A stretch of DNA of 64,000 nt from Pedobacter sp. (GTDB taxonomy: Bacteria > Bacteroidota > Bacteroidia > Sphingobacteriales > Sphingobacteriaceae). Shown here one piece after another: positions 2,603 to 40,165 of this stretch (position 1 is the first letter of the stretch; each line of letters begins with the position of its first letter). The position numbers and the translations under genes are program-made. Where the stretch lies: NCBI GenBank assembly GCA_045629525.1, contig JAZQRH010000012.1:24023-88022 (forward strand). The letters run 5' to 3'. Below the pieces are notes generated by a model, which was not told where the DNA came from, ran no database searches, and was given only the letters and a program-made list of their open reading frames with translations.

Positions 2603-2606
2603 AATA

Positions 2607-2638
2607 ATTAAACCTCTATAGTTTTATAGAGGTTTAAT
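2607..2638 (+). terminator. Perfect 14-bp hairpin after cdd (probable terminator)
   Basis: ATTAAACCTCTATA-gttt-TATAGAGGTTTAAT starting 5 nt after the cdd stop; no strong U-tract. Confidence 0.55.
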
Positions 2639-2848
2639 ATAGATAGAGGTAGGGTCTTCTCATCGCTGTGTTTAGCAATTTGCGTAGTTAACCTAATGAA
2701 AAGATGATGCCAAATGCCAACACAGCTCATTTTTAGTAAAATAGGTTTTGATTTAGATTCTTTATGTAGTGCTTTTTTCTCAGTTAATGGAAAATTTGAA
2801 ACGTTTTGATTTCAAACTTCATATATTTAAAACTTAAAAGTGTAAGCT

Positions 2849-4498: not shown

Positions 4499-4533
4499 AT
4501 AATCTTACGTTCTCTTCCAAAAGAGAAAAATAA

Positions 4534-6357: not shown

Positions 6358-6364
6358 ATTTATA

Positions 6365-6754
6365 ATGTTTACACTAGCGCAAATTAATGCAGCTCATGCA
6401 AAGGTTAAATCGGGCGCCGATTTTCCAACTTATGTAAGAGACATGAAGACTCTCGGAGTTAAAAATTACACGGTGCAGGTGAGCGATGGTGCCACTGTTT
6501 ACATAGGTGCCGAAGGTTTTTTCATTTCATCTCCACCAAAGTACGCCGCATTAACGATCAACAAAATTTTGGATAAGCTGGGTTTTGAAGCTGACTTAAA
6601 ACTGCATCAAAATGGTGGTACAAACTATGTTCAATTTTGTGAGGACTGCGCAAAATCCGGTATAGCGGGCTGGGTAATGAGTTTGACAAAAAACACCTGC
6701 AGCTACTTTGATGAAAAAGGTACAACAATTTTAACCGAACTTATTCCTACTTAG
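6365..6754 (+). CDS. DUF1398 (YdfO-like) protein
   Basis: MFTLAQINAAHAKVKSGADFPTYVRDMKTLGV..Y.V.V.DG, HQNGGTNY..FC..CAKSGI; start set at ATG 6365 rather than the overlapping 6344. Confidence 0.8.
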   Translation: MFTLAQINAAHAKVKSGADFPTYVRDMKTLGVKNYTVQVSDGATVYIGAEGFFISSPPKYAALTINKILDKLGFEADLKLHQNGGTNYVQFCEDCAKSGIAGWVMSLTKNTCSYFDEKGTTILTELIPT

Positions 6755-6789
6755 ATATATGTATTAGCGGAAGATTTAAGTGTCTTCCG

Positions 6790-7365
6790 CTAATTTCCTT
6801 TGAGGAACGCTATCAATTTTTTCATTGCAATGGCTCTATGGCTAATTCTATTTTTTTCGGCCATGTCCATCTCCGCAAATGTAATATCGTAGCCATTGGG
6901 CTCAAATATGGGGTCATAGCCAAAACCATTTTCACCGCTCGATGTGGTGCGTATGGTTCCCTCAATAGTTCCTTCAAAAAGATGATTTTTGCCTTCTCTC
7001 ATTAGCGAAATTACCGTTCTAAATCGAGCCTTCCGGTTATTTTCACCTTCCATATTTTTTAACAAAAGTTGGAGATTAGTTGCGTCGTCTTTAATACCAC
7101 TATAGCGTGCCGAAAATATCCCAGGTGCGTTATTTAAGGCCTCTACTTCCAAACCACTGTCATCTGCAAAGCAATCTAATGCATAATTTTCGTAGACGTA
7201 TTTACTTTTCAGACTAGCATTTTCTGCAAAAGTATCTCCGGTTTCTGGAATATCTACCAAACACCCGATGTCTTTGAGGTTTAGAACTTCGTAAGTTCCA
7301 TCTAATATTTTTGCAACTTCTTCGGTTTTATGAGCGTTATTGGTTGCAAAGACTAATTTTTTCAT
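6790..7365 (-). CDS. rdgB: Non-canonical purine NTP pyrophosphatase (dITP/XTP)
   Basis: [34 protein letters not shown] and SHRA Ham1 motifs. Confidence 0.95.
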
Positions 7366-7371
7366 GTTGGC

Positions 7372-7977
7372 TTATAGATTTTTTAAAGTTCCCCATAACG
7401 CTTTTTTAGCAGGTATGTCTGTATCTAAATCATGCAGGTTGTGGGTAAATATGATCTTGGTTTCTTCAAAATTTCCGAGCTGATGTAGTGTTTGAAATGG
7501 TATGCCCAAATGCTCATTAGAAACACCGAAAGCAAAAACAGTTTTGCATTTAAAGAAGGCTTTAAAATGTTCAAATTTTGCAGAGCTATAAGCCGAATAG
7601 TTAACCAAGGCGAAATCGGCATTTTTTAAGTTAATAGATAGCACTAACTTTCTCAATAACTCTGTACCCTGCGGTGTGCTAACTGGATTTTCTTTATCGT
7701 TTACTAAAATTAAAATTGACTTTTCATTTTTCCCTAAGTACTTAAATTCTAAAGAAGCTTTGGGATAGTTTGCAGTCGGCTCTTCAAGTTTCGGCAATGT
7801 GGCAGTTTTTTCGGCGGCAATTGGCTCATTTTTTTGCGTTTCCTCTTTGCTAATGCCTTCTTTTAGAGGCTCAATTTTAGCCGAAGTTAAAGTCTGCGGG
7901 TCACCCACTAAATATATATCATCATTAAAAAATAAACGGAGCGCTTCGTCGTTATTAATAAGTTGGTTGCTATTCAT
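7372..7977 (-). CDS. Conserved hypothetical protein, possibly DNA polymerase III psi (HolD)-like
   Basis: Clean 201-aa ORF co-oriented with rdgB; short N-terminal motif, low-complexity linker, alpha/beta domain ending L..L......KKALW..L. Confidence 0.6.
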   Translation of the reverse strand: MNSNQLINNDEALRLFFNDDIYLVGDPQTLTSAKIEPLKEGISKEETQKNEPIAAEKTATLPKLEEPTANYPKASLEFKYLGKNEKSILILVNDKENPVSTPQGTELLRKLVLSINLKNADFALVNYSAYSSAKFEHFKAFFKCKTVFAFGVSNEHLGIPFQTLHQLGNFEETKIIFTHNLHDLDTDIPAKKALWGTLKNL

Positions 7978-8072
7978 TTTTTATGGAAAAATTTCTGTTA
8001 AAATTAGTTAAAAATCTTATTATAGCGCCTTAAATTGTTACTTTTATCCATTACTTAATAAACGCATCTTTT

Positions 8073-8654
8073 GTGAAAAAGGCCTGTTTTGTATTAGCTA
8101 TTGCATTATCTGGGGGTAATTTGTTTGCTCAAAACATTGCATCTATTAATGGAAATCCTATTAGTAGTGAAGAGTTTTTGTGGGTTTATCAGAAAAACAA
8201 TGGCAAAAATTCTGCTGTGAACTATAATGAGTTGGCTAACTATTTAAATTTGTATATCAATTTTAAATTGAAAGTGGCCGAAGCCAAATCTTTGGGATTA
8301 GATTTGGATAGTCTGTATAAGGAAGAAATTTCTGGATATGAGCAAGCACTGAAAGCTCAAAATAAAATTAGCGAAGGTAGCTCAGAATATCGCTACGTAA
8401 TGAACGAGTACAAAGAAGGCGTTTTGATGTTTAATGTGAGTGAGCAAAAGGTGTGGAATAAAATGCCTAATGACGATAAAGATTTTGCTGCTTTATTTGA
8501 TCAACCAAAGTACAAAGGGAAAGACTTTGAAGAGGTTAGAGGACAATTGGTTGCCGATTATCAACAAAGGATTGAGGCAGAATGGGTAAAGAATTTAAGA
8601 GCAAAATATAAAGTAAAAATTAACCAAGCGGAATTGAAGAAGTTAGCGAAGTAA
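8073..8654 (+). CDS. SurA-like chaperone lacking rotamase domains
   Basis: GTG start, signal peptide, IASINGNPISSEEF..Y.KNN..YL.LYINFKLKV.EA...GLD, and C-terminal FEEVRGQLVADYQ..IE..WVKNLRAKYKVKIN; no PPIase motif. Confidence 0.75.
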   Translation: MKKACFVLAIALSGGNLFAQNIASINGNPISSEEFLWVYQKNNGKNSAVNYNELANYLNLYINFKLKVAEAKSLGLDLDSLYKEEISGYEQALKAQNKISEGSSEYRYVMNEYKEGVLMFNVSEQKVWNKMPNDDKDFAALFDQPKYKGKDFEEVRGQLVADYQQRIEAEWVKNLRAKYKVKINQAELKKLAK

Positions 8655-8683
8655 TACAACAATCATTATTACACTAATAATTT

Positions 8684-8691
8684 TAACTTTG
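8684..8691 (+). promoter_or_regulatory. Bacteroidota sigma-A -7 element upstream of surA
   Basis: TAACTTTG matches TAnnTTTG, 29 nt before the ATG. Confidence 0.55.
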
Positions 8692-8720
8692 CAGAAAAAT
8701 ATTATAGAATAGTATAACGG

Positions 8721-10088
8721 ATGAAGAAATTTTTATCAATAGCAAGTGTACTTGTAGCCTTGTTTTTGAATGTTAACGCACAAAAAGCAAATTTAGATAA
8801 AGTTGTAGCAGTTGTTGGTAGCAACATCATCCTACTCTCTGATTTAAATCAACAATATGCAATTTACCTTAACCAAGGTAACCCTGCTGATGAAAACGCA
8901 AAATGTTATTTTTTGCAACAAATGTTGGTGCAAAAATTATTGAAACAGCAAGCAGAGATTGACTCTATTGTGGTAGAAGAAAACCAAGTGGACGAAGAGT
9001 TGGATAAACGTATGCGTTATCAAATTCAACGTATGGGCGGCCAAGAGCGCTTAGAACAATTCTTGCAAAAGTCCGTGCTGCAATATAAAGACGAAATGCG
9101 CCCGGATGTGAAGGAAGGGTTGATCGCCCAAAAAATGCAGCAAAAAATTACGGAAAATGTAGCGATCACCCCATTAGAGGTGAAAAAATATTTCGATAGC
9201 TATCCAAAAGATAGTTTGCCAGATATTGGTGCTGAAGTTGAAGTAGGTGAAATTGTGTTTAGCCCGAAATTAACCAAAGCCGAAAAGCAAAAATATTACG
9301 ATAAATTAGAGGCAATACGTTTACGTATAAAAAGTGGTGAAGATTTTGGTTTCTTAGCGAAAACTTACTCGGAAGATCCTGGTTCGGCATCGGAAGGTGG
9401 TGATTATGGTTTTATCGACAGACAAACCATGGTAAAAGAGTTTACCGCATGGGCGTTTAAATTAAAAGCAGGCGAAATGTCGCCCGTGTTTGAAACGGAA
9501 TACGGCTACCATATTTTGCAAGTGTTAGAGCGTAGAGGTGAACAATCTCACGTTCGTCACATATTGGTTCGTCCGCAAACTACGCTGCAAAGTTTAGAGC
9601 GTTCAAAAGGAAAAGCAGATAGCGTTTACAATGATTTAATTGCTAAAAAAATTCCGTTTGCTACGGCAGCTTCATTGTATTCTGACAACAAAGAAACGCA
9701 GTTTAATGGTGGTATGATGCTGTACGCTGACAACCAAACCGCAAGAACGACGTTTATGCCGGTAGAAAAATTAGACCCTGCGGTTTTCGTAGTGATTGAC
9801 ACGATGAAAGTGGGTAGTATTTCGCAACCTGTAGCTTTTAAAGATGACAGATCGGGCAAGGAAGGTTATAAAGTATTTTTCTTGAAGTCGAAAATTGCAC
9901 CTCATAAAGCCAGCTTAGAACAAGACTTTCCGAAATTTAAAGAACAAGCTCAGCGAGAGAAAGAATCAAAAATAATGAGCGAATGGTTTGAAAAACGTAA
10001 AGAAACTACTTATATTAGAATTGACGGTGAGTTTCAGACTTGTGATGAGTTGAAACTTTGGATAAAAAAAGATACTAATAGTAAATAG
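8721..10088 (+). CDS. surA: Periplasmic peptidyl-prolyl isomerase/chaperone SurA
   Basis: DKVVAVVG SurA N-domain; two rotamase domains (F..LAKTYSEDPGSASEGGDYG; HVRHILVRP..A.LYSD...NGG). Confidence 0.9.
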   Translation: MKKFLSIASVLVALFLNVNAQKANLDKVVAVVGSNIILLSDLNQQYAIYLNQGNPADENAKCYFLQQMLVQKLLKQQAEIDSIVVEENQVDEELDKRMRYQIQRMGGQERLEQFLQKSVLQYKDEMRPDVKEGLIAQKMQQKITENVAITPLEVKKYFDSYPKDSLPDIGAEVEVGEIVFSPKLTKAEKQKYYDKLEAIRLRIKSGEDFGFLAKTYSEDPGSASEGGDYGFIDRQTMVKEFTAWAFKLKAGEMSPVFETEYGYHILQVLERRGEQSHVRHILVRPQTTLQSLERSKGKADSVYNDLIAKKIPFATAASLYSDNKETQFNGGMMLYADNQTARTTFMPVEKLDPAVFVVIDTMKVGSISQPVAFKDDRSGKEGYKVFFLKSKIAPHKASLEQDFPKFKEQAQREKESKIMSEWFEKRKETTYIRIDGEFQTCDELKLWIKKDTNSK

Positions 10089-10091
10089 CCA

Positions 10092-11054
10092 ATGCAATTT
10101 AAGACTGAGGTAGAAGCTGTTGATGCCCTTCATCAATCATTTAAGAATATACAAGCCGAAATTGGCAAAGTTGTAGTTGGACAAGACGATATTATAAAAT
10201 CAGTGCTCATTGCTATTTTTAGCAATGGGCATTGTTTGCTTGTAGGGGTTCCTGGTTTGGCTAAAACCTTGTTGGTGCAAACAGTTGCCAGCGTTTTAGA
10301 TCTCAATTTCAATCGCGTTCAGTTTACGCCAGATTTAATGCCAAGTGATATTATTGGCGCTGAGATTTTAGGCGAAGACCGTCATTTTAAATTTATTAGA
10401 GGCCCAATATTCTCAAACATTATATTGGCTGATGAGATTAACCGTACGCCGCCAAAAACGCAAGCTGCATTGTTAGAGGCTATGCAAGAAAAGGCGGTTA
10501 CTGCTGCGGGGATTACTCACCTTTTGCCACAACCTTTTTTTGTGTTGGCCACGCAAAACCCGATAGAACAGGAAGGAACGTATCCTTTGCCAGAGGCACA
10601 GTTGGATAGGTTTATGTTTAATATTCAACTTAATTACCCAGCATTTGCTGATGAATTGACGATTGTTAAAAATACCACCAGCAATTACAAAGTTGATTTG
10701 AAAAAGATCATTTCTGGTGATGAAATTCAATACTTTCAAAAGCTTATTAGAAATATTCCCGTAACAGACAATGTGTTGGAATATGCGGTGAAGTTGGCTG
10801 CTAAAACACGCCCGAATACTGCATTAGCAACTCCAGAGATCAATAACTATGTTTCGTGGGGTGCAGGTCCAAGAGCCTCTCAATTTTTAGTGCTAGGTGC
10901 AAAATGTCATGCTGCAATTTCAGGTAAATATGCCCCCGATATTGAGGACGTGCAAGCGGTCGCTGAAGGAATTTTACGCCATAGAATTGTGCGTAACTAT
11001 CGTGCCGAAGCAGAGGGCTTAACCATTGAAAATATTATTAAAAACCTTTTTTAG
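10092..11054 (+). CDS. moxR: MoxR-family AAA+ ATPase
   Basis: GVPGLAKT Walker A, RVQFTPDLMPSDI, LADEINR, ATQNPIEQEGTYPLPEAQLDRF. Confidence 0.93.
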   Translation: MQFKTEVEAVDALHQSFKNIQAEIGKVVVGQDDIIKSVLIAIFSNGHCLLVGVPGLAKTLLVQTVASVLDLNFNRVQFTPDLMPSDIIGAEILGEDRHFKFIRGPIFSNIILADEINRTPPKTQAALLEAMQEKAVTAAGITHLLPQPFFVLATQNPIEQEGTYPLPEAQLDRFMFNIQLNYPAFADELTIVKNTTSNYKVDLKKIISGDEIQYFQKLIRNIPVTDNVLEYAVKLAAKTRPNTALATPEINNYVSWGAGPRASQFLVLGAKCHAAISGKYAPDIEDVQAVAEGILRHRIVRNYRAEAEGLTIENIIKNLF

Positions 11055-11056
11055 AA

Positions 11057-30595: not shown

Positions 30596-30760
30596 ATTAT
30601 ATCGATTAGTTTCCTCAAATATTCAAAGATGAAAGGTTATAAAATAGGTGGAGTTTATGAACCTCCATAATTTTGCTATGAAACAGTATTTTAAGTTTAT
30701 GAGTATCCTATAATACGGTTTAAGAATTCAGGTAATTAATTGATTAAATGTAGCTTATTA

Positions 30761-30779
30761 GTTTAAAATCATTCTAAAT
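30761..30779. promoter_or_regulatory. Palindromic Fur-like box upstream of hemA
   Basis: GTTTAAAATCATTCTAAAT, an 8-1-8 inverted repeat with one mismatch (TTTAaAAT-n-ATTCTAAA). Confidence 0.5.
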
Positions 30780-30824
30780 TAACCTTATTTACAGCTTAAT
30801 GACAGACAAAATGCTTTGCGTTGT

Positions 30825-30832
30825 TACTTTTG
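30825..30832 (+). promoter_or_regulatory. -7 element of hemA promoter
   Basis: TACTTTTG, 27 nt before the TTG start. Confidence 0.6.
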
Positions 30833-30859: not shown

Positions 30860-32086
30860 TTGGAATATTTAAAAGTAATTGCTTTTACTCATAAACACAT
30901 AGACCTGAAAGCGCTAGGCAAACTGGTAATATGTGAGCAAACTTTGGATGATCGTTTACGTAACATCCAGCGTGAGTTAAATGTAAACGAAATATTCTAC
31001 GTTGGTACCTGCAACAGGGTAGAGTTCATATTTACTTCCGAAGAACAGTTAGATAAAGCATTCATCACTAAATTTTTAAGAGTACTTGATATGGGTTTAC
31101 CCGAAGAGTATATCGAGAATTTTGTGAACAATGTAACAAGTTTTGAAAAACTGGAAGCCTTCAATCACCTGTTGCGTACTTCTTGCTCTCTAGAGAGTTT
31201 GGTGGTTGGGGAGAAAGAGATTTTAGCTCAAATCCGTAAAGCTTATGATGCGTGTAAGGAAGCTGGTTTTACTGGCGATTATATGCGTATGATTATGGAT
31301 AGAGTGGTTAAAACAGCGAAAGAAGTTTATACGCATACCAATATTTCTAGAAATCCAGTTTCTGTGGTTTCGCTTGCCTACAGAAAGTTGCGTGAGTTAA
31401 ATATGTGTGGTAGCTCTCGGTTACTGATTATTGGTGCTGGAGAAACCAATCTCAATATTGCGCAATATTTAAAGAAACATACCTTTTCCAACTTTGCGGT
31501 GTTTAATAGAACTTTGGAGAAAGCAGAAGTGCTCGCTAAGGAATTAAATGGCAAAGCATATCCTTTAAGTGCATTATCGAGTTATAAGGAAGGTTTCGAT
31601 GTAATTATTACTTGTACTGGTTCAACAGAACCGGTAATTACCAAGGAGATTTACCAGTCGTTGTTAAATGGCCAAACCGATAAAAAGGTTATTGTAGACT
31701 TAGCCGTTCCTAACGATGTGGCTGCCGATGTTAGAGCAGAGTTTCCTTTGCACTACATAGAGGTAGAATCACTTAAAGAAGTAGCTCGTAAGAATATTCA
31801 AGAACGTTATGATGAGTTGGTAAACGCCGAGCACATTATTGACGAAAACATCAAAGATTTCGATTCGGTATTGCGTCAACGTAGAATTGAAATTGCGATG
31901 GGTGATGTGCCTAAGAAAATCAAAGAAATTAAGCAAACGGCTATTAACGGTGTGTTTGCCCAAGAAATTGAAGGCTTAGATGAACACTCTAGAGCGGTGT
32001 TGGAGCGTGTGATCAACTACATGGAAAAGAAATATATCAGCGTGCCCATGGTAATGGCTAAAGAAATTTTGGTCAAAAACAGCTAG
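30860..32086 (+). CDS. hemA: Glutamyl-tRNA reductase
   Basis: TCNRVE, SLESLVVGEKEILAQ, SVVSLA, IIGAGE and DLAVP.D motifs; TTG start. Confidence 0.96.
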   Translation: MEYLKVIAFTHKHIDLKALGKLVICEQTLDDRLRNIQRELNVNEIFYVGTCNRVEFIFTSEEQLDKAFITKFLRVLDMGLPEEYIENFVNNVTSFEKLEAFNHLLRTSCSLESLVVGEKEILAQIRKAYDACKEAGFTGDYMRMIMDRVVKTAKEVYTHTNISRNPVSVVSLAYRKLRELNMCGSSRLLIIGAGETNLNIAQYLKKHTFSNFAVFNRTLEKAEVLAKELNGKAYPLSALSSYKEGFDVIITCTGSTEPVITKEIYQSLLNGQTDKKVIVDLAVPNDVAADVRAEFPLHYIEVESLKEVARKNIQERYDELVNAEHIIDENIKDFDSVLRQRRIEIAMGDVPKKIKEIKQTAINGVFAQEIEGLDEHSRAVLERVINYMEKKYISVPMVMAKEILVKNS

Positions 32087-32230: not shown

Positions 32231-33808
32231 GTGAAGAAAGTAATTATTGGTACTCGTGGTAGTGATTTGGCGTTGTGGCAAGCAAACTACACCAAAGATA
32301 GATTAGCCAGCATTGGGATAGAGGCAGAACTAAAAATCATTAAAACGCAGGGCGATAAAATCCTGAACCTCAGGTTGGATAAGCTAGAAGGTAAGGGTTT
32401 TTTCACTAAGGAGTTAGAGGAAGAGTTGCTAGCTGGTACGATTGATATGGCCGTTCATTCTCATAAAGATTTACCAACAACCAATCCTCCTGGTTTAATC
32501 ATCGCTGCAGTACCAGAGCGTGAAGACTCTGCAGAATTGTTGTTAATACTGAAAGATTGCGTAGATGTAACTCAAAAATTGTCGCTTAAGAAGGGCGCAA
32601 TGGTGGGTACGTCTTCCAACAGACGTAAAGCACAACTTCTGGCTGCTCGCCCAGATTTAAATATAGAAGATTTACGAGGTAACGTACCTACACGTATCCA
32701 AAAACTACGCGACGAAAATTACGATGCCATTGTACTTGCAAAGGCAGGCGTTAGTCGTCTGGGCTTAGACCTCAGTGAATTTCACGTAGAGGTTGTAGAT
32801 ACTACAGAGTTAGTGCCAGCACCCGCTCAAGGAGCTTTAGCCATTCAAATTAGAGAAAGCGATACTGAGCTTTTTAACGAGCTTCAAAAAATACACAATC
32901 CGGCAATTGCCGAAGCTATTGCGGTAGAGCGTAAGGTGTTAAACCTGTTTGAAGGTGGCTGCCATATGCCTCTGGGTTGTTACTGCAAAAAGGAAAACGA
33001 TCAGTTCGAAGTTTGGACCTCGAAGGCTGAAAGCGATGAGCATTTTCCAGATCGTTTTTACATTAAATCGGCTACTTCCGCAGGCTTAGCTGAACAGATT
33101 GTTGCGAAGTTCAATACAGAAAGAAAATTCCCTGCGCAGGTTTTTATAACCAGAGAAGTAGGAGAGCATAGCTATTTCGGCAAAGCTTTAGCTAAACACA
33201 ATATGCAAATTGATGGACGTTCATTAATTCGAACTTTTCCTATCGTTACCGTTATAGATGATTTCTTCCTCAAAAATGCTGATTGGATTATGTTTAGCAG
33301 TAGAAATGCTGTTGAATACTTCTTCAAACTAAATCCGGTATTACCGAAAAAGGTAAAATTTGCTGTTGTAGGAAGAGGCTCTGAAGATTCCCTTCGCAAA
33401 GTTGGTCACTTGGCTGATTTTGTAGGTGAAGGAGGAGATATTCTAGAAGTTGCCGAAGAATTTGCGAAAATAGTAGCCGGAACAACTGTGGTATTTCCTA
33501 GGGCACAGGATTCTTTACTGACCATGCAGAAATTCTTAACGCCAGATACTAAAATTATAGACTTGCCTATCTACGAAACGGTTCAAGAAGAAAATGTAGC
33601 GGGTTCTTCTGCAGAGGTGCTTATCTTCACTAGCCCAAGCAACGTCGAGGCTTATTTTGTAGATAACTTGCTAGAATCAGGTCAAAAAGTTATAGCGATT
33701 GGAAGCTCTACAGGCAAAAAGTTTGATGATATGGGCGTGCCTTATGCATTGCCTTATTCGCCAGATGAGATTGGCTTGGCTGAAGCTGTTTTCGGCATCG
33801 AGTTATAA
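32231..33808 (+). CDS. hemC: Hydroxymethylbilane synthase / uroporphyrinogen-III synthase fusion (HemC-HemD)
   Basis: GTRGSDLALWQA, KGFFTKELE, AVHSHKD, GTSSNRR, RGNV.TR, LFEGGC; C-terminal HemD-like domain (FSSRNAV..F, AVVG.GS, FTSPSNV..Y, AIG.STG). Confidence 0.95.
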   Translation: MKKVIIGTRGSDLALWQANYTKDRLASIGIEAELKIIKTQGDKILNLRLDKLEGKGFFTKELEEELLAGTIDMAVHSHKDLPTTNPPGLIIAAVPEREDSAELLLILKDCVDVTQKLSLKKGAMVGTSSNRRKAQLLAARPDLNIEDLRGNVPTRIQKLRDENYDAIVLAKAGVSRLGLDLSEFHVEVVDTTELVPAPAQGALAIQIRESDTELFNELQKIHNPAIAEAIAVERKVLNLFEGGCHMPLGCYCKKENDQFEVWTSKAESDEHFPDRFYIKSATSAGLAEQIVAKFNTERKFPAQVFITREVGEHSYFGKALAKHNMQIDGRSLIRTFPIVTVIDDFFLKNADWIMFSSRNAVEYFFKLNPVLPKKVKFAVVGRGSEDSLRKVGHLADFVGEGGDILEVAEEFAKIVAGTTVVFPRAQDSLLTMQKFLTPDTKIIDLPIYETVQEENVAGSSAEVLIFTSPSNVEAYFVDNLLESGQKVIAIGSSTGKKFDDMGVPYALPYSPDEIGLAEAVFGIEL

Positions 33809-33944
33809 ATACCGTAATATGTAAAACTTAGGTAAAGTATCTACAAATGACAGTTTCCTAAGAATTTAGATAAATAAGATTTGCATTTTTGTAACGCTAA
33901 CAAGGTCGATTTAGATTGTGTTGGAGTTTCAATTTATACGCTGT

Positions 33945-34916
33945 ATGATGTTACATAGACCACGTAGGTTAAGAAAAAATCCTGTTGTAAGAGAGATGAT
34001 CGCAGAAACTAAACTATCGAAAGATATGTTTGTGTATCCTTATTTCGTAGTGCCAGGAAATAATATTACTCACGCTATTGATGCTATGCCTGGTATCAAC
34101 CATTTTTCAACCAATACTTTAATAAAAGATGTAGAGAAGGGTTTAAAATTAGGTGTAAATAAAATTATGCTTTTTGGCGTTGGCGATGAGAAAAGCGAAG
34201 ATGCGCACAGTGCATTCGATCCCAATTCTTTAGTGCCGGTTGCTGTACGCGAGTTGAAAAAGCAATTTGGTGATGATTTGTATGTAGTTACCGACGTTTG
34301 TGTTTGTTCATACACTAATCACGGTCATTGCGGCATTATGCATAACGATTATGTTCAAAATGATCTTACTGTTGATTTGATTGCAAAGATGGCTTTGACA
34401 CATGCCGAAGCAGGGGCCGATATGTTAGCGCCTTCAGATATGATGGATGGTCGGGTCCGCAACATGCGAGAAAAACTTGACGCAGCTCATTTTGAAAATG
34501 TTGCCATCATGAGTCACGCTACTAAATTTGCATCGGCGTATTACGGACCGTTTAGAGAAGCAGCTGATTGTGCACCAAATAAAGGCGATAGAAAGGCTTA
34601 CCAGATGGATTTTCGTAATCCGGAAGAAGCATTACGCGAAGCTTTGCTAGACCAAGAAGAAGGTGCTGATATTTTAATGGTTAAGCCTGGTTTGGCTTAT
34701 TTAGATATCATTGCCAAGTTAAAGCAAAATACAAATTTGCCTTTGGCAGTTTACAATGTATCTGGAGAATACTCTATGATAAAAGCTGCAGCAGAAAAAG
34801 GTTGGATTGACGAACAAAAAGTAGTGATGGAAACCATGTACGCTTTCGCAAGAGCTGGAGCAAGCGTTATTACTACCTACCACATTAGAGATATTGTAGA
34901 AAATAATTGGATGTAA
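33945..34916 (+). CDS. hemB: Porphobilinogen synthase (Zn-type)
   Basis: RPRRLR, DVCVCSYTNHGHCG, APSDMMDGRV, ASAYYGPFREA, MVKPG and YNVSGEY; start at ATG 33945 or 33948. Confidence 0.96.
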   Translation: MMLHRPRRLRKNPVVREMIAETKLSKDMFVYPYFVVPGNNITHAIDAMPGINHFSTNTLIKDVEKGLKLGVNKIMLFGVGDEKSEDAHSAFDPNSLVPVAVRELKKQFGDDLYVVTDVCVCSYTNHGHCGIMHNDYVQNDLTVDLIAKMALTHAEAGADMLAPSDMMDGRVRNMREKLDAAHFENVAIMSHATKFASAYYGPFREAADCAPNKGDRKAYQMDFRNPEEALREALLDQEEGADILMVKPGLAYLDIIAKLKQNTNLPLAVYNVSGEYSMIKAAAEKGWIDEQKVVMETMYAFARAGASVITTYHIRDIVENNWM

Positions 34917-35003: not shown

Positions 35004-36302
35004 ATGCAAGACATATCAAGAGCCAAGTCGGCCGAATTATACGAGAAATCGAAAACCTATTTTCCTGGAGGCGTAAACTCGCCAGTAAGGGCATTTAAGT
35101 CTGTTTACGGTACGCCATTGTTTATCGAAAAAGGAGATGGGCCCTATATTTGGGATGCCGATGGTAATAAATTTATCGACTTTTGTGCGAGCTGGGGCCC
35201 ACTAATTTTAGGGCACAACAACGCTAAAATTAGAGAGAAGGTTACAAAGGTAATGCAAAACGGAATGAGTTTCGGCGCACCAACGGCTTTAGAAAATGAA
35301 TTGGCCGAGCTCATCATCGAAAATAATCGTTTTGTAGATAAAATACGTTTCACCAGTTCTGGTACAGAAGCGGTGATGTCTGCTATACGTTTGGCCCGAG
35401 GCTTTACACGGCGCAATAAAATCATCAAGTTTGAAGGCTGTTACCACGGTCACAGCGATTCGCTTTTAGTGAAGGCGGGTTCTGGTTTGGTTACTTTCGG
35501 AGAAACCTCATCGGCGGGTGTGCCAAAAGCTTTTGCAGATGAAACCATAGTAATTGCTTTGAACGACAAAAATGCGGTGACTGAAGCGTTCTCACAATTT
35601 AAGGATGATGTTGCTGCGGTAATTATTGAGGGTATTCCTGCAAACAACGGCTTGCTTATTCAAGATAAAGATTACGTAGAATTTTTAAGTGCTAAATGTA
35701 AGGAAAATGGTGCGTTACTAATTTTCGACGAAGTAATTACCGGCTTTAGAGTAGGTTTTGAAGGTGCTGCCGCTTATTATGGCATTACACCTGATATTGT
35801 AACTTACGGAAAAATTATTGGCGGTGGTTTACCAGTAGGCATGTATGGTGCAAGTAACGCTATTATGGCGCACGTTTCGCCAGATGGTGGCGTTTATCAA
35901 GCAGGTACACTATCGGGTAATCCGGTGGCTATGGCCGCAGGTATTGCTGCGTTGAGTATTTTGAATACTCCAGGTTTTTATGAGAACTTAAACGCTACTA
36001 CAAAAGCGTTTGTAAACGATATTGAGGCTCATATTGCCGAGAAAAACTATCAACTAAAAATTTTTACTGTAGGTTCTATTTTTTGGTTCGCATTTACTGA
36101 TAAGGAAATAAAAACAGCCGAAGATATTGATCCGGCAAGTATGGATAAGTTTAAAGTAATGCACCGTGAATGTTTAAACAGAGGGGTTTATTTTGGCCCA
36201 TCGGGTTATGAAGTTGGCTTTATTAGTGCTGCCCATACACAAGCGGAGCTAAATAGGGCCAAGGAAGTTATTTTCGAAGCTTTGGCTGTAGTGTTTGCGT
36301 AA
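35004..36302 (+). CDS. hemL: Glutamate-1-semialdehyde 2,1-aminomutase
   Basis: PGGVNSPVR, SSGTEA.MSA.RLAR, GCYHGH, FDEVITGFR, GKIIGGGLP and AGTLSGNP. Confidence 0.97.
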   Translation: MQDISRAKSAELYEKSKTYFPGGVNSPVRAFKSVYGTPLFIEKGDGPYIWDADGNKFIDFCASWGPLILGHNNAKIREKVTKVMQNGMSFGAPTALENELAELIIENNRFVDKIRFTSSGTEAVMSAIRLARGFTRRNKIIKFEGCYHGHSDSLLVKAGSGLVTFGETSSAGVPKAFADETIVIALNDKNAVTEAFSQFKDDVAAVIIEGIPANNGLLIQDKDYVEFLSAKCKENGALLIFDEVITGFRVGFEGAAAYYGITPDIVTYGKIIGGGLPVGMYGASNAIMAHVSPDGGVYQAGTLSGNPVAMAAGIAALSILNTPGFYENLNATTKAFVNDIEAHIAEKNYQLKIFTVGSIFWFAFTDKEIKTAEDIDPASMDKFKVMHRECLNRGVYFGPSGYEVGFISAAHTQAELNRAKEVIFEALAVVFA

Positions 36303-36337
36303 AACGAAGTTTGTATTGTGTACAGGAGGAGTTTTTT

Positions 36338-36381
36338 AAACCCGATTGAAGTGAGCACGAAGTAAAACGGAAAGCGGGACT
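36338..36381. repeat. REP-like element (copy 2, short)
   Basis: AAACCCGATTGAAGTG...AAAACGGAAAGCGGGACT; shares CCCGAT/AGCGGG ends with 11637-11700. Confidence 0.5.
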
Positions 36382-36459
36382 GAAGATACCTAGTATTACA
36401 GGATTTTGTTTTTTCGAAAAAAAATAATGGTTAAATTAAGCCAAGCATATAGGTAAAGG

Positions 36460-37326
36460 ATGAAAAAGTCTATCATTATATTTTATATCTTGTTGTTTTA
36501 CGCCTTAGGCCAGTTGGTAAGCTGGGGTATTTTGGTGGTAAAAATTGATGAAGATAAATTGCCCATGATTATGGGTGAGGGCGCTGTTTTCCTTTTTCTA
36601 TTGGGTATTGGTGCTTATTTTATTCATGCCTCGATTAAAAAGGAAGGCAAGCTGCAGGAAAATCAGCAAAACTTCTTGATGTCGGTTACGCACGAGCTAA
36701 AATCGCCTTTGGCTGCTATCAAACTATCGTTGCAAACTATTGTTAGAAGAGAGTTGGATAAGGAACAGCGAGATGTTTTAATTAAAAACTCGCTGAAGGA
36801 TGTAGAGCGCTTGGATGATTTAGTAGAAAACATGTTGTTGGCCACCAAGATCGAAAGTAAGACTTATTCGTTTCCTAAAGAGGTGTTTGATTTTTCGGAT
36901 CTGGTTAATAAAGTGTCGGATAGATTGCAGGTGCACTCTTGTGGATGCGAACAAATTGTAACGACTAAAATCGAACCTAACATTAAAATTGAGGGCGATA
37001 AATTTGCATTATCTTCGGTAGTGAATAACTTGGTAGAAAACGCCATTAAATATTCGGGACCATGTGCCGAAATTACAGTAGAGCTCTGTCAAATTGACGG
37101 TAAACCTAAATTGGTGGTCTCTGACAAGGGTTTAGGCATTCCTGACGAGGAAAAGATGCATATTTTCGACAAATTTTATCGCGTGGGCGATGAAAACGTT
37201 CGAAAATCGAAAGGTACGGGACTTGGCTTGTTTATTGTTAAGGAAGTATTACAGAAACACGACGCTGATATTAGCGTGAAAGATAACGTACCACACGGTG
37301 CAATTTTTGAAGTAACATTTAGTTAG
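36460..37326 (+). CDS. Sensor histidine kinase with two closely spaced TMs and no extracytoplasmic domain
   Basis: H-box SVTHELKSPL, N-box NNLVENAIKY, DKGLGI, FDKFYR and GTGLGL. Confidence 0.93.
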   Translation: MKKSIIIFYILLFYALGQLVSWGILVVKIDEDKLPMIMGEGAVFLFLLGIGAYFIHASIKKEGKLQENQQNFLMSVTHELKSPLAAIKLSLQTIVRRELDKEQRDVLIKNSLKDVERLDDLVENMLLATKIESKTYSFPKEVFDFSDLVNKVSDRLQVHSCGCEQIVTTKIEPNIKIEGDKFALSSVVNNLVENAIKYSGPCAEITVELCQIDGKPKLVVSDKGLGIPDEEKMHIFDKFYRVGDENVRKSKGTGLGLFIVKEVLQKHDADISVKDNVPHGAIFEVTFS

Positions 37327-37329
37327 CAT

Positions 37330-38034
37330 ATGTCACAAAAACTAAGAATTTTGTTGGTTGAAGACGAGGATCACTTGTTAGATGCCATTAAGTTGAACCT
37401 CGAACTTGAGGGATATAAAGTACACGCCGTTAAAGATGGCAAAACAGCACTTAAAGTTTTCAAAGAAGAACGCTTTAATTTGATAATATTAGATGTAATG
37501 TTGCCAGAGATGGATGGTTTCCAGGTTTGCGAAACTATTCGTTTAGAGAATTCGGACGTGCCAATTTTATTTTTAACTGCTAAAAATACAAGCGAAGATA
37601 GAGTGATGGGGCTTAAAAAGGGAGCTGATGATTATTTGGTGAAACCTTTTAACCTAGAGGAACTTATTTTACGTGTTGGCATTTTGGTAAAACGTAGTTT
37701 AAAACCAGACGACTTGAAAGAGCTAAACTCTTACAAAATTGGTGATAAAACAATTTATTTCAACTCTTTTGAATTGAAACATGATGATGGCACTGTAGTA
37801 CCTTTAACCAAAAAGGAAACGATGTTGTTAAAGCTTCTAATTGAGCGTAAAAACGAAGCAGTTTCGCGTGAGCAAATTCTAGAAACGGTTTGGAATTATG
37901 ATGTTTATCCGTCTACAAGAACAATTGATAACTTTATTTTAACTTTCCGTAAATATTTCGAGCCTGATCAGAAAAATCCGGTTTACTTTCATTCAATTAG
38001 AGGGGTAGGTTATAAGTTTACAGACGTTAGCTAA
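37330..38034 (+). CDS. OmpR-family response regulator
   Basis: ILLVEDE, ILDVMLP, FLTAK, GADDYLVKPF; winged helix SREQIL..VW..RTIDNFI..SIRGVGY. Confidence 0.95.
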   Translation: MSQKLRILLVEDEDHLLDAIKLNLELEGYKVHAVKDGKTALKVFKEERFNLIILDVMLPEMDGFQVCETIRLENSDVPILFLTAKNTSEDRVMGLKKGADDYLVKPFNLEELILRVGILVKRSLKPDDLKELNSYKIGDKTIYFNSFELKHDDGTVVPLTKKETMLLKLLIERKNEAVSREQILETVWNYDVYPSTRTIDNFILTFRKYFEPDQKNPVYFHSIRGVGYKFTDVS

Positions 38035-38555
38035 TGTATAATAAGGTAGCTAGATATTGCTATATAACCTTGCTTATATTAGCTACGGGATGTTTTGTAT
38101 GGGCAAAGGAGTACGAAATCGCGGTGATCTCATTCTTCCTTTTGAGTTTGGTGATTTGGAGCCATTTTAAGCACAGTTCTGTTTTAGAAGCCTCCAAACA
38201 TTTTAAAAACTCAAACTACGAAAAAGCCGAAAAATTTTTGAACGAAGTTGATAAACCCGAACTGCTTGCAAAAAACAGAAGAGGGTTTTACGAGTTTATG
38301 AGGGCTAACATTGCACTAAAACGCGAAGATTTTGAAACCGCTGAACATCATTTTCAATTATCCAGTAGATATCCGTTAGGTGGACCAAATGATAAAGCCT
38401 ATGTATTGATTCATTTGGCTAATTTAGCACTCCGAAAAAAGGATGGAACCAGAGCTTTGGCATACGTAGAGAAAGCGAAGGAGTTAACAACATCAAGTAA
38501 AGCAAAAGAAATTATTAAAGTTATAGAGAAACAAGCCAAACCTTTGGCAAATTAA
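38034..38555 (+). CDS. Membrane-anchored TPR-like protein
   Basis: Two N-terminal TMs followed by helical TPR-like repeats (A...F..NYEKA..L; ANIAL...DF..AE.HF); TAATG coupling to the regulator. Confidence 0.75.
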   Translation: MYNKVARYCYITLLILATGCFVWAKEYEIAVISFFLLSLVIWSHFKHSSVLEASKHFKNSNYEKAEKFLNEVDKPELLAKNRRGFYEFMRANIALKREDFETAEHHFQLSSRYPLGGPNDKAYVLIHLANLALRKKDGTRALAYVEKAKELTTSSKAKEIIKVIEKQAKPLAN

Positions 38556-38558
38556 GAC

Positions 38559-39584
38559 ATGGAGAACAATTTATTTTTAGACGCAGCATTTTCTAAACAA
38601 ACAGAACGTCCACCGGTATGGATGATGAGACAGGCGGGGCGCTTTATGCCGCAGTACTGGGAAATTAAAAACAAGTATTCTTTCCTAGAAATGTGCAAAA
38701 CACCAGAAATTGCCGCGGATGTAACCATGTTGCCTGTAGATTTGTTAGGTATAGATGCCGCTATTTTATTCTCCGATATTTTAGTAACTGGAGAGGCTAT
38801 GGGTGGTGACTTGAGCTTTACACAGGGCGTTGGTCCTAAGTTTGCAAATCCGGTGCGCAACGAGGCAGATATTGATGATTTGGCTACAGATTGTTTGGAC
38901 CGTTTGCAGTATGTTGCAGATGCGATTAAGGTTATTCAGCAACGTTTAAATGGTAAAATTCCTTTAATTGGTTTTGCGGGTGCGCCTTTCACTGTAATGA
39001 GTTATCTGGTAGAAGGTGGTTCTTCTAAAGATTTTAAGTTAACCAAGCTGCTAATTCATAATCACCCTGCATTAGCGCACAAGTTGTTGTCAAAGATTGC
39101 AAAGGTAACTATCGATTATTTAAATCTTCAAATTGACGCTGGCGTGAATGCTTTGCAATTGTTTGATAGTTGGGCATTGGCTTTATCATGGGATGATTAT
39201 CAGGAATTCTCGCACAGATACAATGCAGAAATCATTGCTGGTTTAAATAGGACTAATATTCCGGTAATTTCTTTCTGTAAAGGTAGTTCAGTTTTTGCAC
39301 CAATTATGGCTACCGCTAAGCCAGATGTTGTTTCTATTGACTGGAATGCTGATTTATTAAACATTAAACAAGTTTTACCAGCAGGAATTGCTGTTCAAGG
39401 TAATTTAGATCCACATATTTTGTATGCAGATAAACCAGTAATCAAAGCACATATTCACAAGTTGTTTGAGCGCATGCGTGGCGAAAATGGCTTTATCTTC
39501 AACTTAGGTCATGGTATTATGCCAGATATTCCTTTCGACAATGTGAAATACGCCATTGATGTGGTAAAAGAATTTAAGTATTAA
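38559..39584 (+). CDS. hemE: Uroporphyrinogen decarboxylase
   Basis: PVWMMRQAGR, DAAILFSDIL, GFAGAPFT, FDSW, QGNLDP and FNLGHG. Confidence 0.97.
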   Translation: MENNLFLDAAFSKQTERPPVWMMRQAGRFMPQYWEIKNKYSFLEMCKTPEIAADVTMLPVDLLGIDAAILFSDILVTGEAMGGDLSFTQGVGPKFANPVRNEADIDDLATDCLDRLQYVADAIKVIQQRLNGKIPLIGFAGAPFTVMSYLVEGGSSKDFKLTKLLIHNHPALAHKLLSKIAKVTIDYLNLQIDAGVNALQLFDSWALALSWDDYQEFSHRYNAEIIAGLNRTNIPVISFCKGSSVFAPIMATAKPDVVSIDWNADLLNIKQVLPAGIAVQGNLDPHILYADKPVIKAHIHKLFERMRGENGFIFNLGHGIMPDIPFDNVKYAIDVVKEFKY

Positions 39585-39592
39585 CTATCTTT

Positions 39593-39616
39593 AATCCCCG
39601 ATAAGGGGATTTTTTT
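39593..39616 (+). terminator. Intrinsic terminator-like hairpin abutting the hemJ start codon
   Basis: AATCCCC-gataa-GGGGATT followed by TTTTT and then ATG at 39617. Confidence 0.6.
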
Positions 39617-40165
39617 ATGGAAGCATATTATCAGTATATATTAGCCGTACACATCGTTTTTATGGTAAGCTGGATGGCCGGTTTATTTTATAGCGTTCGT
39701 TTATTTATTTATCATACCGAAGCCGAAACTAAAACTGAGCCAGAGCGTAGCATTTTAAAGAGAGAGTACGCAAAAATTACCGCTCGTTTGTGGAGTATCA
39801 TCACTACACCTGCCATGATCTTAACCGTTGCAGCTGGCTGTTTAATGGTTGCCACTAGACCTTGGCTGTTGCAAATGCCTTGGTTTCATGTTAAATTAGG
39901 TTTCGTTGTGGCTCTATTGGCCTATCATTTCATTTGTCAAAGCATTATGAAGAAGTTGCGAAATGGAATTTTCAAAAACACTTCTACGCAATTACGTCTT
40001 TGGAATGAGGTAGCTACAGTTATTTTGGTGGCTATTGTATTTACGGTAATTTTAAAAACAGCTATCGATTGGTTGTACGGACTGATCGGATTATTAGTGT
40101 TTTCGGGAGTAATTATGTTTGCAGTAAAACTTTATAAGCGCTATCGCGAAAAAAATAATCTTTAA
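39617..40165 (+). CDS. hemJ: Protoporphyrinogen IX oxidase HemJ (CopD/UPF0093 family)
   Basis: A.HI.FMVSWMAGLFY..RLFIYH, I.TPAM, W.HVKL..V and NEV motifs. Confidence 0.92.
   Translation: MEAYYQYILAVHIVFMVSWMAGLFYSVRLFIYHTEAETKTEPERSILKREYAKITARLWSIITTPAMILTVAAGCLMVATRPWLLQMPWFHVKLGFVVALLAYHFICQSIMKKLRNGIFKNTSTQLRLWNEVATVILVAIVFTVILKTAIDWLYGLIGLLVFSGVIMFAVKLYKRYREKNNL

What the first reader, a model, noticed from the sequence alone, without database searches (positions are those of the whole stretch)
36460..38555. Three-component regulator embedded in the heme biosynthesis cluster
A histidine kinase, an OmpR-type regulator and a translationally coupled two-TM TPR protein sit between hemL and hemE with gaps of 3 nt or less. 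The kinase has two TMs joined by only about 6 residues, so it has no periplasmic sensor. This resembles intramembrane-sensing kinases that rely on an accessory membrane protein. Inference: an uncharacterised system senses membrane heme/porphyrin or redox state, with the TPR protein as co-sensor, and forces co-expression of hemE.
Basis: partly seen in the sequence, partly recalled or inferred. Interest (0 to 1): 0.65.

Follow-up and report, generated by a model that had tools for sequence, protein, structure and literature searches.

The report
HemKR-type haem regulator plus TPR partner
A Pedobacter-like soil bacterium carries, inside its haem-synthesis operon, a sensor/regulator pair of the kind already studied in Leptospira (HemKR), with the same DNA target in front of hemA; the only new part is a small membrane-anchored TPR protein always encoded with it.

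Summary
On the + strand lie hemA, hemCD, hemB, hemL, a minimal two-TM histidine kinase (36460-37326), an OmpR/PhoB-type regulator (37330-38034), a 2-TM/3-TPR protein (38034-38555), hemE and hemJ. Junctions inside the trio and to hemE are 3, -1 and 3 nt. The hemL-kinase gap is 157 nt, not 3 nt or less.

The system is not an unknown kind. It matches the Leptospira HemKR (Hklep/Rrlep) system in four ways: the same slot between hemL and hemE, the same minimal two-TM kinase, the same regulator family, and a conserved hem-box. The box (T[T/G]ACA-N6-TGACA) sits 19 nt upstream of the hemA -7 promoter element, in the -33 position.

Gene order is kept in all 79 of 80 Pedobacter-like species loci that my colinearity test could score, and in Mucilaginibacter. 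Two lineages keep only kinase-regulator-TPR-hemE. RNA contigs from a related Pedobacter start just after that promoter, and one of them runs unbroken to the end of hemJ.

The TPR protein is specific to this lineage. Its start overlaps the regulator's stop in nearly every locus. One lineage lacks it, and distant relatives sit in unrelated contexts. Its proposed co-sensor role is untested.

Verdict: a new variant of a known kind, of moderate interest.

The parts
30760..30780 (+). Imperfect palindrome (consensus ATTTAAAAC-C-TTTCTAAAT) upstream of the hem-box. It is a candidate site for a second, dimeric regulator.
   Evidence: Conserved in hemA upstream regions of Pedobacter, Mucilaginibacter and more distant loci. 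Sequence read.
30789..30805 (+). hem-box-like direct repeat TTACAG-N5-TGACAG with an 11-bp period. It is the candidate binding site of the embedded regulator.
   Evidence: It is the only match to TKACA-N6-TGACA in 64 kb. It is present 19-20 nt upstream of the -7 box in 72 of 73 loci. It matches the Leptospira HemR hem-box (PMC11426443).
30825..30832 (+). Bacteroidota-type -7 promoter element TACTTTTG of the hemA operon.
   Evidence: Invariant block. RNA contigs of a related strain begin about 18 nt downstream of the homologous element, and none cover the promoter region.
30860..32086 (+). hemA, glutamyl-tRNA reductase.
   Evidence: TIGR01035 256 bits, above its cut-off.
32231..33808 (+). hemC-hemD fusion.
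   Evidence: Porphobil_deam plus HEM4.
33918..34916 (+). hemB, porphobilinogen synthase.
   Evidence: ALAD E 3e-138.
35004..36302 (+). hemL, glutamate-1-semialdehyde aminomutase.
   Evidence: TIGR00713 545.6 bits.
36334..36385 (+). Flavo-1-like RNA/repeat element in the 157-nt hemL-kinase spacer. It is not part of the system in most relatives.
   Evidence: Rfam RF01705 33.1 bits, below the gathering score of 42. Homologous elements with variable inserts occur in the closest Pedobacter clade only. The fold is not unusual, z = -0.04.
36460..37326 (+). HemK-like minimal histidine kinase. It has a two-TM hairpin, with TM2 continuous with the DHp helix, His78, and N, G1, F and G2 boxes.
37330..38034 (+). 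HemR-like OmpR/PhoB-family response regulator (Asp55). It is the most conserved protein of the operon.
38034..38555 (+). 2-TM, three-TPR membrane protein. Its ATG overlaps the regulator's TAA stop.
38559..39584 (+). hemE, uroporphyrinogen decarboxylase.
   Evidence: TIGR01464 409.8 bits.
39593..39611 (+). GC hairpin plus U-tract directly before the hemJ start.
39617..40165 (+). hemJ, protoporphyrinogen oxidase (UPF0093).
   Evidence: PF03653 E 4e-41. TIGR00701 scores 129.5 bits, just under its cut-off of 138.

Best explanation
The kinase and regulator are a HemKR-type two-component system that controls the promoter of the haem operon in which they sit.

Proposed mechanism:
- Inferred by analogy with Leptospira HemR: the phosphorylated regulator binds the direct repeat TTACAG-N5-TGACAG.
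- Shown in the sequence: this repeat occupies the -33 position of the hemA promoter, 19 nt upstream of the -7 box TACTTTTG.
- Inferred from that position: binding there activates transcription of hemA-hemCD-hemB-hemL-kinase-regulator-TPR-hemE-hemJ as one unit.
- Shown in the sequence: the kinase has no sensor domain other than its two-TM hairpin, which is fused directly to the DHp helix.
- Inferred by analogy with Leptospira HemK: it is switched from kinase to phosphatase by a pathway-derived signal (5-aminolevulinic acid or a later tetrapyrrole intermediate) perceived at or in the membrane. This would give negative feedback on ALA formation.
- Inferred: because the pair is inside the regulated operon, the loop also autoregulates.

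The 2-TM TPR protein is a Sphingobacteriales-specific addition. It is translationally coupled to the regulator. I consider it most likely an accessory that modulates or scaffolds the kinase or regulator at the membrane. This step is the least supported.
For: Anatomy.

Synteny:
- All 79 of the 80 Pedobacter-like species loci that the colinearity test could score are colinear, 68 of them with all nine genes.
- The same order occurs in Mucilaginibacter and in metagenome loci whose TPR protein is only 35-43% identical.
- In Albibacterium and in L098 the hemA-hemL part is elsewhere, but kinase-regulator-TPR-hemE stays together.

hem-box:
- It is found once in the 64-kb window, exactly upstream of hemA.
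- 72 of 73 loci keep the box with 19-20 nt spacing to TAnnTTTG, including Mucilaginibacter and L011.
- The motif equals the published HemR hem-box TGACA[N6]TGACA (PMC11426443).

Precedent: in L. interrogans hklep/rrlep lie between hemL and hemE and are co-transcribed with them. Hklep has two TMs with a dispensable loop. Mutants need haem or ALA (PMC2266917). ALA triggers HemK phosphatase, and the truncated kinase is locked in the kinase state.

Transcription: in three RNA runs, contigs of a P. panaciterrae-like strain begin at L068:2181, 12 nt before the hemA start codon and downstream of the -7 box. None cover the promoter region. One 8,931-nt contig runs to 11055, the end of hemJ.

Catalytic and phospho-acceptor residues are invariant.
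Against: - No Leptospira HemK or full-length HemR sequence could be obtained, so orthology is not shown. PDB chain 4q7e is, from my memory only, the HemR receiver domain. It scores 80.5 bits against the regulator, lower than many unrelated OmpR-family receivers at about 105 bits.
- No additional hem-boxes were found in the 1.4 Mb of flanks searched, nor upstream of the kinase where the module is detached from hemA. The regulon is therefore known from one site only.
- The regulator is 95-98% identical across the genus, far more conserved than the enzymes. This hints at wider duties than one promoter.
- RNA contigs show continuity, not quantity, and come from a relative, not from this organism.
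- Nothing tested here shows what the signal is or what the TPR protein binds.
Confidence: 0.72

Rival explanations
1. An intramembrane-sensing kinase is blind on its own and depends on the 2-TM TPR protein as the real sensor of membrane haem, porphyrin or redox state. This would be a three-component system like LiaFSR, SaePQRS or BceS-BceAB.
For: The kinase meets the architectural definition of an intramembrane-sensing kinase. The regulator-TPR junction is a 1-nt overlap in almost every locus from Pedobacter to Albibacterium. The trio stays together when the rest of the operon is lost.
Against: A sizeable lineage (L096 and the 231-aa regulator group) keeps kinase-regulator-hemE without the TPR gene. 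Its kinase retains the same conserved TM motifs: FY, Y, WG and M..GEG. Leptospira HemKR works without such a partner (PMC2266917, PMC11426443). The TPR transmembrane helices are poorly conserved, and the protein is the least conserved of the operon at a median 60% identity. Distant family members have no kinase nearby.
Confidence: 0.3
2. The TPR protein is not part of signalling. It acts on the pathway itself. It could be a membrane-anchored TPR regulator or scaffold of a haem enzyme, for example GluTR (as plant FLU does) or HemE/HemJ. It would then be functionally comparable to Bacillus HemX or E. coli HemY.
For: It is a membrane anchor plus a cytoplasmic three-TPR peptide-binding module. It is always followed by hemE. 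Some sources label relatives 'HemY'. The knowledge of FLU, HemX and HemY is from memory.
Against: There is no specific similarity to FLU or HemY. HemY_N scores E 1.2. FLU is absent from the best 60 sequence hits and the best 50 fold hits, which are all generic TPR. The tightest coupling is to the regulator (-1 nt), while the TPR-hemE gap varies from -8 to 190 nt. Distant relatives are not next to hem genes.
Confidence: 0.15
3. The pair is a broadly acting, near-essential regulator comparable to WalRK, MtrAB or RpaB. Its position in the hem operon would be a lineage habit, and the repeat upstream of hemA would belong to another factor.
For: The regulator is 95-98% identical across Pedobacter and 82-90% identical in distant Sphingobacteriales. 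This is more conserved than hemE at 88%. It scores about equally against the RpaB, YycF, MtrA and PhoB models, all below their cut-offs.
Against: The same slot is used in Leptospira and, by report, in Bdellovibrio (PMC2266917). The motif at hemA is exactly the published HemR box, with the geometry expected of an OmpR/PhoB-type activator. Linkage to hemE survives rearrangements.
Confidence: 0.07
4. It is a PhoR/PhoB phosphate system, and the repeat is a pho box.
For: The best NCBIfam kinase hit is PhoR and a top regulator hit is Bacteroidota PhoB. JGI labels relatives 'PhoP'. The reverse complement of the repeat, CTGTCAT-N4-CTGTAA, resembles the E. coli pho box (from memory).
Against: Scores are far below the curated cut-offs: 184 against 334 for PhoR, 122.7 against 500 for Bacteroidota PhoR, and 181.5 against 270 for Bacteroidota PhoB. 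There is no PAS domain and the kinase is only 288 aa. No pst or pho genes lie nearby, and the linkage is to hem genes throughout.
Confidence: 0.02

Closest known systems
Leptospira HemKR (Hklep/Rrlep; L. interrogans LB014/LB015, L. biflexa LEPBIa1423/1422) with its hem-box
   Same: A small histidine kinase whose only N-terminal part is two TM helices with a dispensable loop. An OmpR/PhoB-type regulator. A position between hemL and hemE in a hemA-hemC/D-hemB-hemL ... hemE cluster, with co-transcription. A TGACA-N6-TGACA repeat upstream of hemA (PMC2266917, PMC11426443).
   Different: A different phylum. The kinase is even shorter here (His78 against His98, loop of about 8 residues). A third, translationally coupled 2-TM TPR gene is present that is not described for Leptospira. 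Downstream genes are hemE-hemJ rather than hemE-hemN-hemY/G. Sequence orthology was not demonstrated here.
Intramembrane-sensing histidine kinases with accessory membrane proteins (LiaFSR, SaePQRS, BceRS-AB of Bacillota; from memory)
   Same: A two-TM kinase with a minimal extracytoplasmic linker and no cytoplasmic sensor domain. A small membrane protein is encoded in the same operon.
   Different: The accessory proteins are unrelated to this TPR protein. Those systems respond to envelope stress, not to a biosynthetic pathway. No evidence exists here that the accessory is required.
Haem-responsive two-component systems HssRS, ChrSA and HrrSA of Gram-positive bacteria (review PMC11442138, listed but not read; the content is from memory)
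   Same: Two-component control of haem homeostasis, in part by intramembrane perception.
   Different: Different kinase and regulator families (NarL-type for ChrSA and HrrSA). Different targets (efflux, haem oxygenase). They are not embedded in the hem operon.
Plant FLU, Bacillus HemX and E. coli HemY: membrane proteins encoded with or acting on early tetrapyrrole enzymes (from memory)
   Same: A membrane-anchored protein associated with hem genes. FLU and HemY combine a membrane anchor with TPR repeats.
   Different: No specific sequence or fold similarity beyond generic TPR. The coupling here is to a response regulator gene.

Membership tests
HemKR-type haem two-component system | Histidine kinase whose only N-terminal part is two TM helices, with no dedicated sensor domain | tested here: met
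   Hydropathy. AlphaFold helix 2-29, then helix 31-96 through His78. Only HisKA and HATPase_c in Pfam.
HemKR-type haem two-component system | OmpR/PhoB-family regulator with a phospho-acceptor Asp | tested here: met
   Response_reg plus Trans_reg_C. Asp55, Thr83 and Lys105 are invariant.
HemKR-type haem two-component system | Genes located between hemL and hemE and co-transcribed with them (as in L. interrogans) | tested here: met
   RNA contig spanning hemA to hemJ in a related Pedobacter. Precedent in PMC2266917.
HemKR-type haem two-component system | hem-box TGACA-N6-TGACA upstream of hemA | tested here: met
   TTACAG-N5-TGACAG at 30789-30805. Conserved in 72 of 73 loci at a fixed distance from the -7 box. 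Mucilaginibacter, L011 and L096 have TGACA in both halves.
HemKR-type haem two-component system | Sequence orthology to Leptospira HemK and HemR | tested here: inconclusive
   No Leptospira sequences were reachable. PDB 4q7e (HemR receiver domain by my recollection only) scores 80.5 bits, below many other OmpR-family receivers.
HemKR-type haem two-component system | Regulator binds the box; ALA or a tetrapyrrole switches the kinase to phosphatase; mutants are altered in haem synthesis | not testable with these tools
   Needs EMSA or footprinting, Phos-tag and genetics.
Intramembrane-sensing histidine kinase (architectural class) | Two TM helices joined by a very short extracytoplasmic linker, a short N-terminal part and no other input domain | tested here: met
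   Linker of about 8 residues. TM region within the first 58 residues.
Intramembrane-sensing histidine kinase (architectural class) | Dependence on an accessory membrane protein for signal perception | not testable with these tools
   Only genetic linkage is available: the regulator-TPR overlap is conserved. A TPR-less lineage exists.
PhoR/PhoB phosphate system | Scores above the curated NCBIfam cut-offs; PAS-containing PhoR | tested here: not met
   PhoR 184.1 bits against 334. Bacteroidota PhoR 122.7 against 500. Bacteroidota PhoB 181.5 against 270. No PAS domain.
E. coli-type HemY | HemY_N domain (PF07219) | tested here: not met
   E = 1.2, 9.7 bits, against a cut-off of 31.
FLU-like TPR regulator of GluTR | Specific similarity to the FLU TPR domain | tested here: not met
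   Only consensus or generic TPR proteins appear among the best 60 sequence hits and best 50 fold hits.
2-TM plus TPR small-protein family of about 170 aa (Bacteroidota) | Full-length similarity, the same length and the same two N-terminal TM helices | tested here: met
   291 clusters at 50% identity with E <= 1e-3, nearly all 165-190 aa and aligned end to end. The model has pLDDT 95.9.

The most novel reading that the evidence does not exclude
The 2-TM TPR protein is an obligate third component of a HemKR-type circuit in Sphingobacteriales. Its cytoplasmic TPR groove would bind the regulator, the kinase or GluTR. It would convert a tetrapyrrole-intermediate signal at the membrane into the kinase/phosphatase switch. 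That would make it a bacterial counterpart of the membrane-anchored TPR brake FLU of plants, wired into a two-component system.
Probability: 0.2. Interest if true: 0.6.

Novelty: new variant of a known kind. Interest (0 to 1): 0.38.

Why it matters
HemKR has been studied experimentally only in Leptospira. This case shows that the same circuit is fixed in a large group of soil Bacteroidota. At least 376 species genomes carry the TPR marker. The shared features are position in the operon, a minimal kinase and a hem-box at the -33 position of hemA. This supports the view that HemKR is a widespread, ancient feedback device on ALA formation.

It also offers genetically more tractable, non-pathogenic hosts (Pedobacter, Mucilaginibacter) for two open questions: what the two-TM kinase actually perceives, and whether a small membrane TPR protein takes part. 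Beyond that it is an extension of known biology rather than a new mechanism.

Tried and rejected
I could therefore run no genome-wide hem-box regulon search, no survey of other Bacteroidota classes and no retrieval of Leptospira genes.
The narrower A3 returned only close relatives, Pedobacter and the like.
- A tblastn of hemE against the plasmid collection, meant to reach Leptospira chromosome II, found no Leptospira.
- No RNA run holds the window's own organism; only DNA metagenomes do. I used a related Pedobacter instead.
- A PWM scan for further hem-boxes in all loci, and upstream of the kinase in detached modules, gave nothing consistent.
- The Flavo-1-like element in the hemL-kinase spacer scores below the Rfam threshold, has no unusual fold and is clade-specific. 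I rejected it as part of the system.
- The HemY, FLU and Rap-phosphatase ideas for the TPR protein rest on generic TPR similarity only.
- The PhoBR reading was rejected on curated cut-offs.
Full report
**1. What is there**

The + strand of the window carries the following genes:
- hemA, 30860-32086
- a hemC-hemD fusion, 32231-33808
- hemB, 33918-34916
- hemL, 35004-36302
- a 288-aa histidine kinase, 36460-37326
- a 234-aa OmpR/PhoB-type response regulator, 37330-38034
- a 173-aa protein with TPR hits, 38034-38555
- hemE, 38559-39584
- hemJ, 39617-40165
- an LpxZ-family gene

The junctions are kinase-regulator 3 nt, regulator-TPR -1 nt (TAATG) and TPR-hemE 3 nt.

The kinase has canonical H, N, G1, F and G2 boxes. 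Its only other part is a two-TM hairpin. Hydropathy places the TMs at about residues 5-27 and 36-57. An AlphaFold model (pLDDT 78.5) shows helix 2-29, a single-residue break and one continuous helix 31-96 that runs from TM2 through His78. There is no HAMP, PAS or periplasmic domain.

The third protein is modelled with pLDDT 95.9 as two TM helices followed by three TPR units. Its N-terminus is basic, so the TPR domain should face the cytoplasm.

**2. Conservation**

The TPR protein belongs to a broad family. It has 291 clusters at 50% identity with E <= 1e-3. Nearly all are 165-190 aa and align end to end.

A scan of species-representative genomes found 376 with a relative, and the best 80 were returned, mostly Pedobacter. 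Of these, 79 are colinear, and the one remaining locus failed my colinearity test for a reason I did not resolve. Sixty-eight hold all nine genes hemA-hemCD-hemB-hemL-kinase-regulator-TPR-hemE-hemJ in order. The other 11 are truncated contigs.

The same order holds in three further places:
- Mucilaginibacter sp. X4EP1
- metagenome loci whose TPR protein is only 35-43% identical
- a MAG

In Albibacterium indicum and in locus L098 the hemA-hemL block is elsewhere. Kinase-regulator-TPR-hemE (-hemJ in Albibacterium) remains one unit.

One lineage, L096 with its group of 231-aa regulators, has hemL-kinase-regulator-112 nt-hemE with no TPR gene.

More distant TPR-family members (24-32% identity) lie after a photolyase gene or alone, with no kinase or hem gene nearby.

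Across loci the regulator-TPR junction is a 1-nt overlap almost without exception. The hemL-kinase gap ranges from -11 to 1217 nt and the TPR-hemE gap from -8 to 190 nt.

Median identity to the window over the 80 loci:

| Protein | Median identity (%) |
|---|---|
| regulator | 96 |
| hemE | 88.5 |
| hemB | 82 |
| hemA | 80 |
| hemL | 79.5 |
| hemCD | 78.6 |
| kinase | 75 |
| hemJ | 68.5 |
| TPR | 60 |

**3. The promoter**

The 100 nt upstream of hemA are almost invariant across these genera. They hold three elements:
- an imperfect palindrome (ATTTAAAAC-C-TTTCTAAAT)
- a direct repeat T[T/G]ACAG-N5-TGACAG with an 11-bp period (window 30789-30805)
- the Bacteroidota -7 element TACTTTTG (30825-30832), exactly 19 nt further on

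The proximal half-site therefore occupies the place of the -33 element. This is the geometry of a PhoB-type class II activator; that reading is my inference.

The pattern occurs once in the 64-kb window. The box plus -7 element at 19-20 nt spacing is present in 72 of 73 loci. No second consistent site was found in about 1.4 Mb of flanks, nor upstream of detached kinase genes.

**4. Transcription**

No RNA data exist for this organism. Metatranscriptome runs do contain a strain about 98% identical to P. panaciterrae locus L068.

In three runs, contigs start at L068:2181. That is 12 nt before the hemA start codon and about 18 nt after the -7 box. The upstream neighbour's contigs end at or before 2029, so the promoter region itself is not covered. 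This argues against DNA contamination.

One 8,931-nt contig runs from 2181 to 11055, the end of hemJ. Another continues further. This supports one transcript from the hem-box promoter through the kinase, regulator and TPR genes to hemJ. The limits are that contigs show continuity only and come from a relative.

**5. Comparison with what is known**

After working out the anatomy I recognised the Leptospira HemKR system and checked it in the literature.

Louvel et al. 2008 (PMC2266917) report:
- Hklep/Rrlep mutants of L. biflexa need haem or ALA.
- In L. interrogans the orthologues lie between hemL and hemE within hemACDBLENYH and are co-transcribed with them.
- The same linkage exists in Bdellovibrio.
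- The kinase has two TMs, and its loop is dispensable.

Imelio et al. 2024 (PMC11426443) report:
- Phospho-HemR binds the hem-box TGACA[N6]TGACA upstream of hemA and hmuO.
- The kinase lacking its first 80 residues is locked in the kinase state.
- ALA, or a derived metabolite, triggers HemK phosphatase activity and shuts the system down.
- Control of the hemA operon is composite.

Four of the defining features are met here: kinase architecture, regulator family, gene position with co-transcription, and the hem-box at hemA. Sequence orthology could not be tested. The only possibly relevant solved chain, 4q7e (HemR receiver by my memory only), scores lower than many unrelated receivers.

PhoBR membership fails the curated cut-offs. 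HemY_N is not matched. Sequence and fold searches with the TPR protein return only generic TPR proteins.

**6. Mechanism**

*Shown:*
- the gene set and its conservation
- the promoter architecture
- the minimal kinase
- co-transcription in a relative

*Inferred by analogy:*
- The phosphorylated regulator activates the hemA promoter at the hem-box.
- A pathway-derived signal perceived through the TM hairpin flips the kinase to phosphatase.
- The embedded position adds autoregulation.

*Open:*
- The conserved palindrome upstream may serve a second regulator. This is consistent with the composite control seen in Leptospira.
- The TPR protein's role is unknown. The invariant overlap with the regulator gene argues for matched synthesis and a role in the signalling module.
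- Three facts argue against the TPR protein being an indispensable sensor: a lineage lacks it, the protein is poorly conserved, and family members occur in unrelated contexts.

**7. Earlier notes of this scan**

I consulted these only after reaching the HemKR reading. They report the same interpretation for another Bacteroidota genome (e1-4321307) and for hem-embedded pairs in other phyla. They are not independent evidence, but they indicate that this arrangement is common.

**8. Verdict**

Noticed in passing
window 37330-38034; loci L015-L094: The response regulator is 95-98% identical across 80 Pedobacter-like species and 82-90% identical in other Sphingobacteriales genera. This is far above the haem enzymes of the same operon (hemE 88%, hemL 79%). 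A single promoter target does not obviously explain such constraint.
   Followed up: partly
window 30760-30780: An imperfect palindrome ATTTAAAAC-C-TTTCTAAAT lies directly upstream of the hem-box and is conserved across genera. It probably binds a second regulator. Another first-stage note calls it Fur-like.
   Followed up: partly
window 36334-36385; L019-L027, L041, L059, L084, L092 upstream of the kinase gene: A Flavo-1-like element (33.1 bits, below the Rfam gathering score of 42) sits in the hemL-kinase spacer. In the closest Pedobacter clade the same CCCGATTGAAG...GAAAAGCGGGA frame encloses variable inserts with REP-like repeats, expanding the spacer to 300-1200 nt. It looks like a mobile or repeat element rather than a regulator of this operon.
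   Followed up: partly
window 39593-39616: A GC hairpin plus T-tract ends at the hemJ ATG. In many relatives the hemE-hemJ gap is only -1 to 10 nt and lacks this feature, and RNA contigs of a relative run through the junction.
   Followed up: partly
L035 10842-11582 (also L019, L044, L047, L049, L071, L076, L093): Several Pedobacter species have a roughly 1-kb insertion between hemE and hemJ. It encodes a 246-aa P-loop protein (GPNGSGKTT) that looks like a zeta-toxin/AAA-type ATPase.
   Followed up: no
L001-L003, gene at 8001-8531: Distant members of the 2-TM TPR family sit 12-18 nt downstream of a DNA photolyase gene in unrelated Bacteroidota. This hints at a family role not tied to haem or to kinases.
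   Followed up: no
L097 10835-10850: In Albibacterium a perfect-looking hem-box (TTACAGATTTTTGACA) lies inside the 3' part of hemE, about 460 nt upstream of hemJ. It may be chance or an internal promoter site.
   Followed up: no
window 36460-36630 (kinase residues 1-57): The TM hairpin of the kinase carries invariant Tyr9, Tyr14, Trp22, Met36, Gly39-Glu40, Phe44 and Gly51, and nearly invariant Tyr53 and His56. These include a membrane-embedded Glu. They are candidate ligand-contact or signalling residues.
   Followed up: partly
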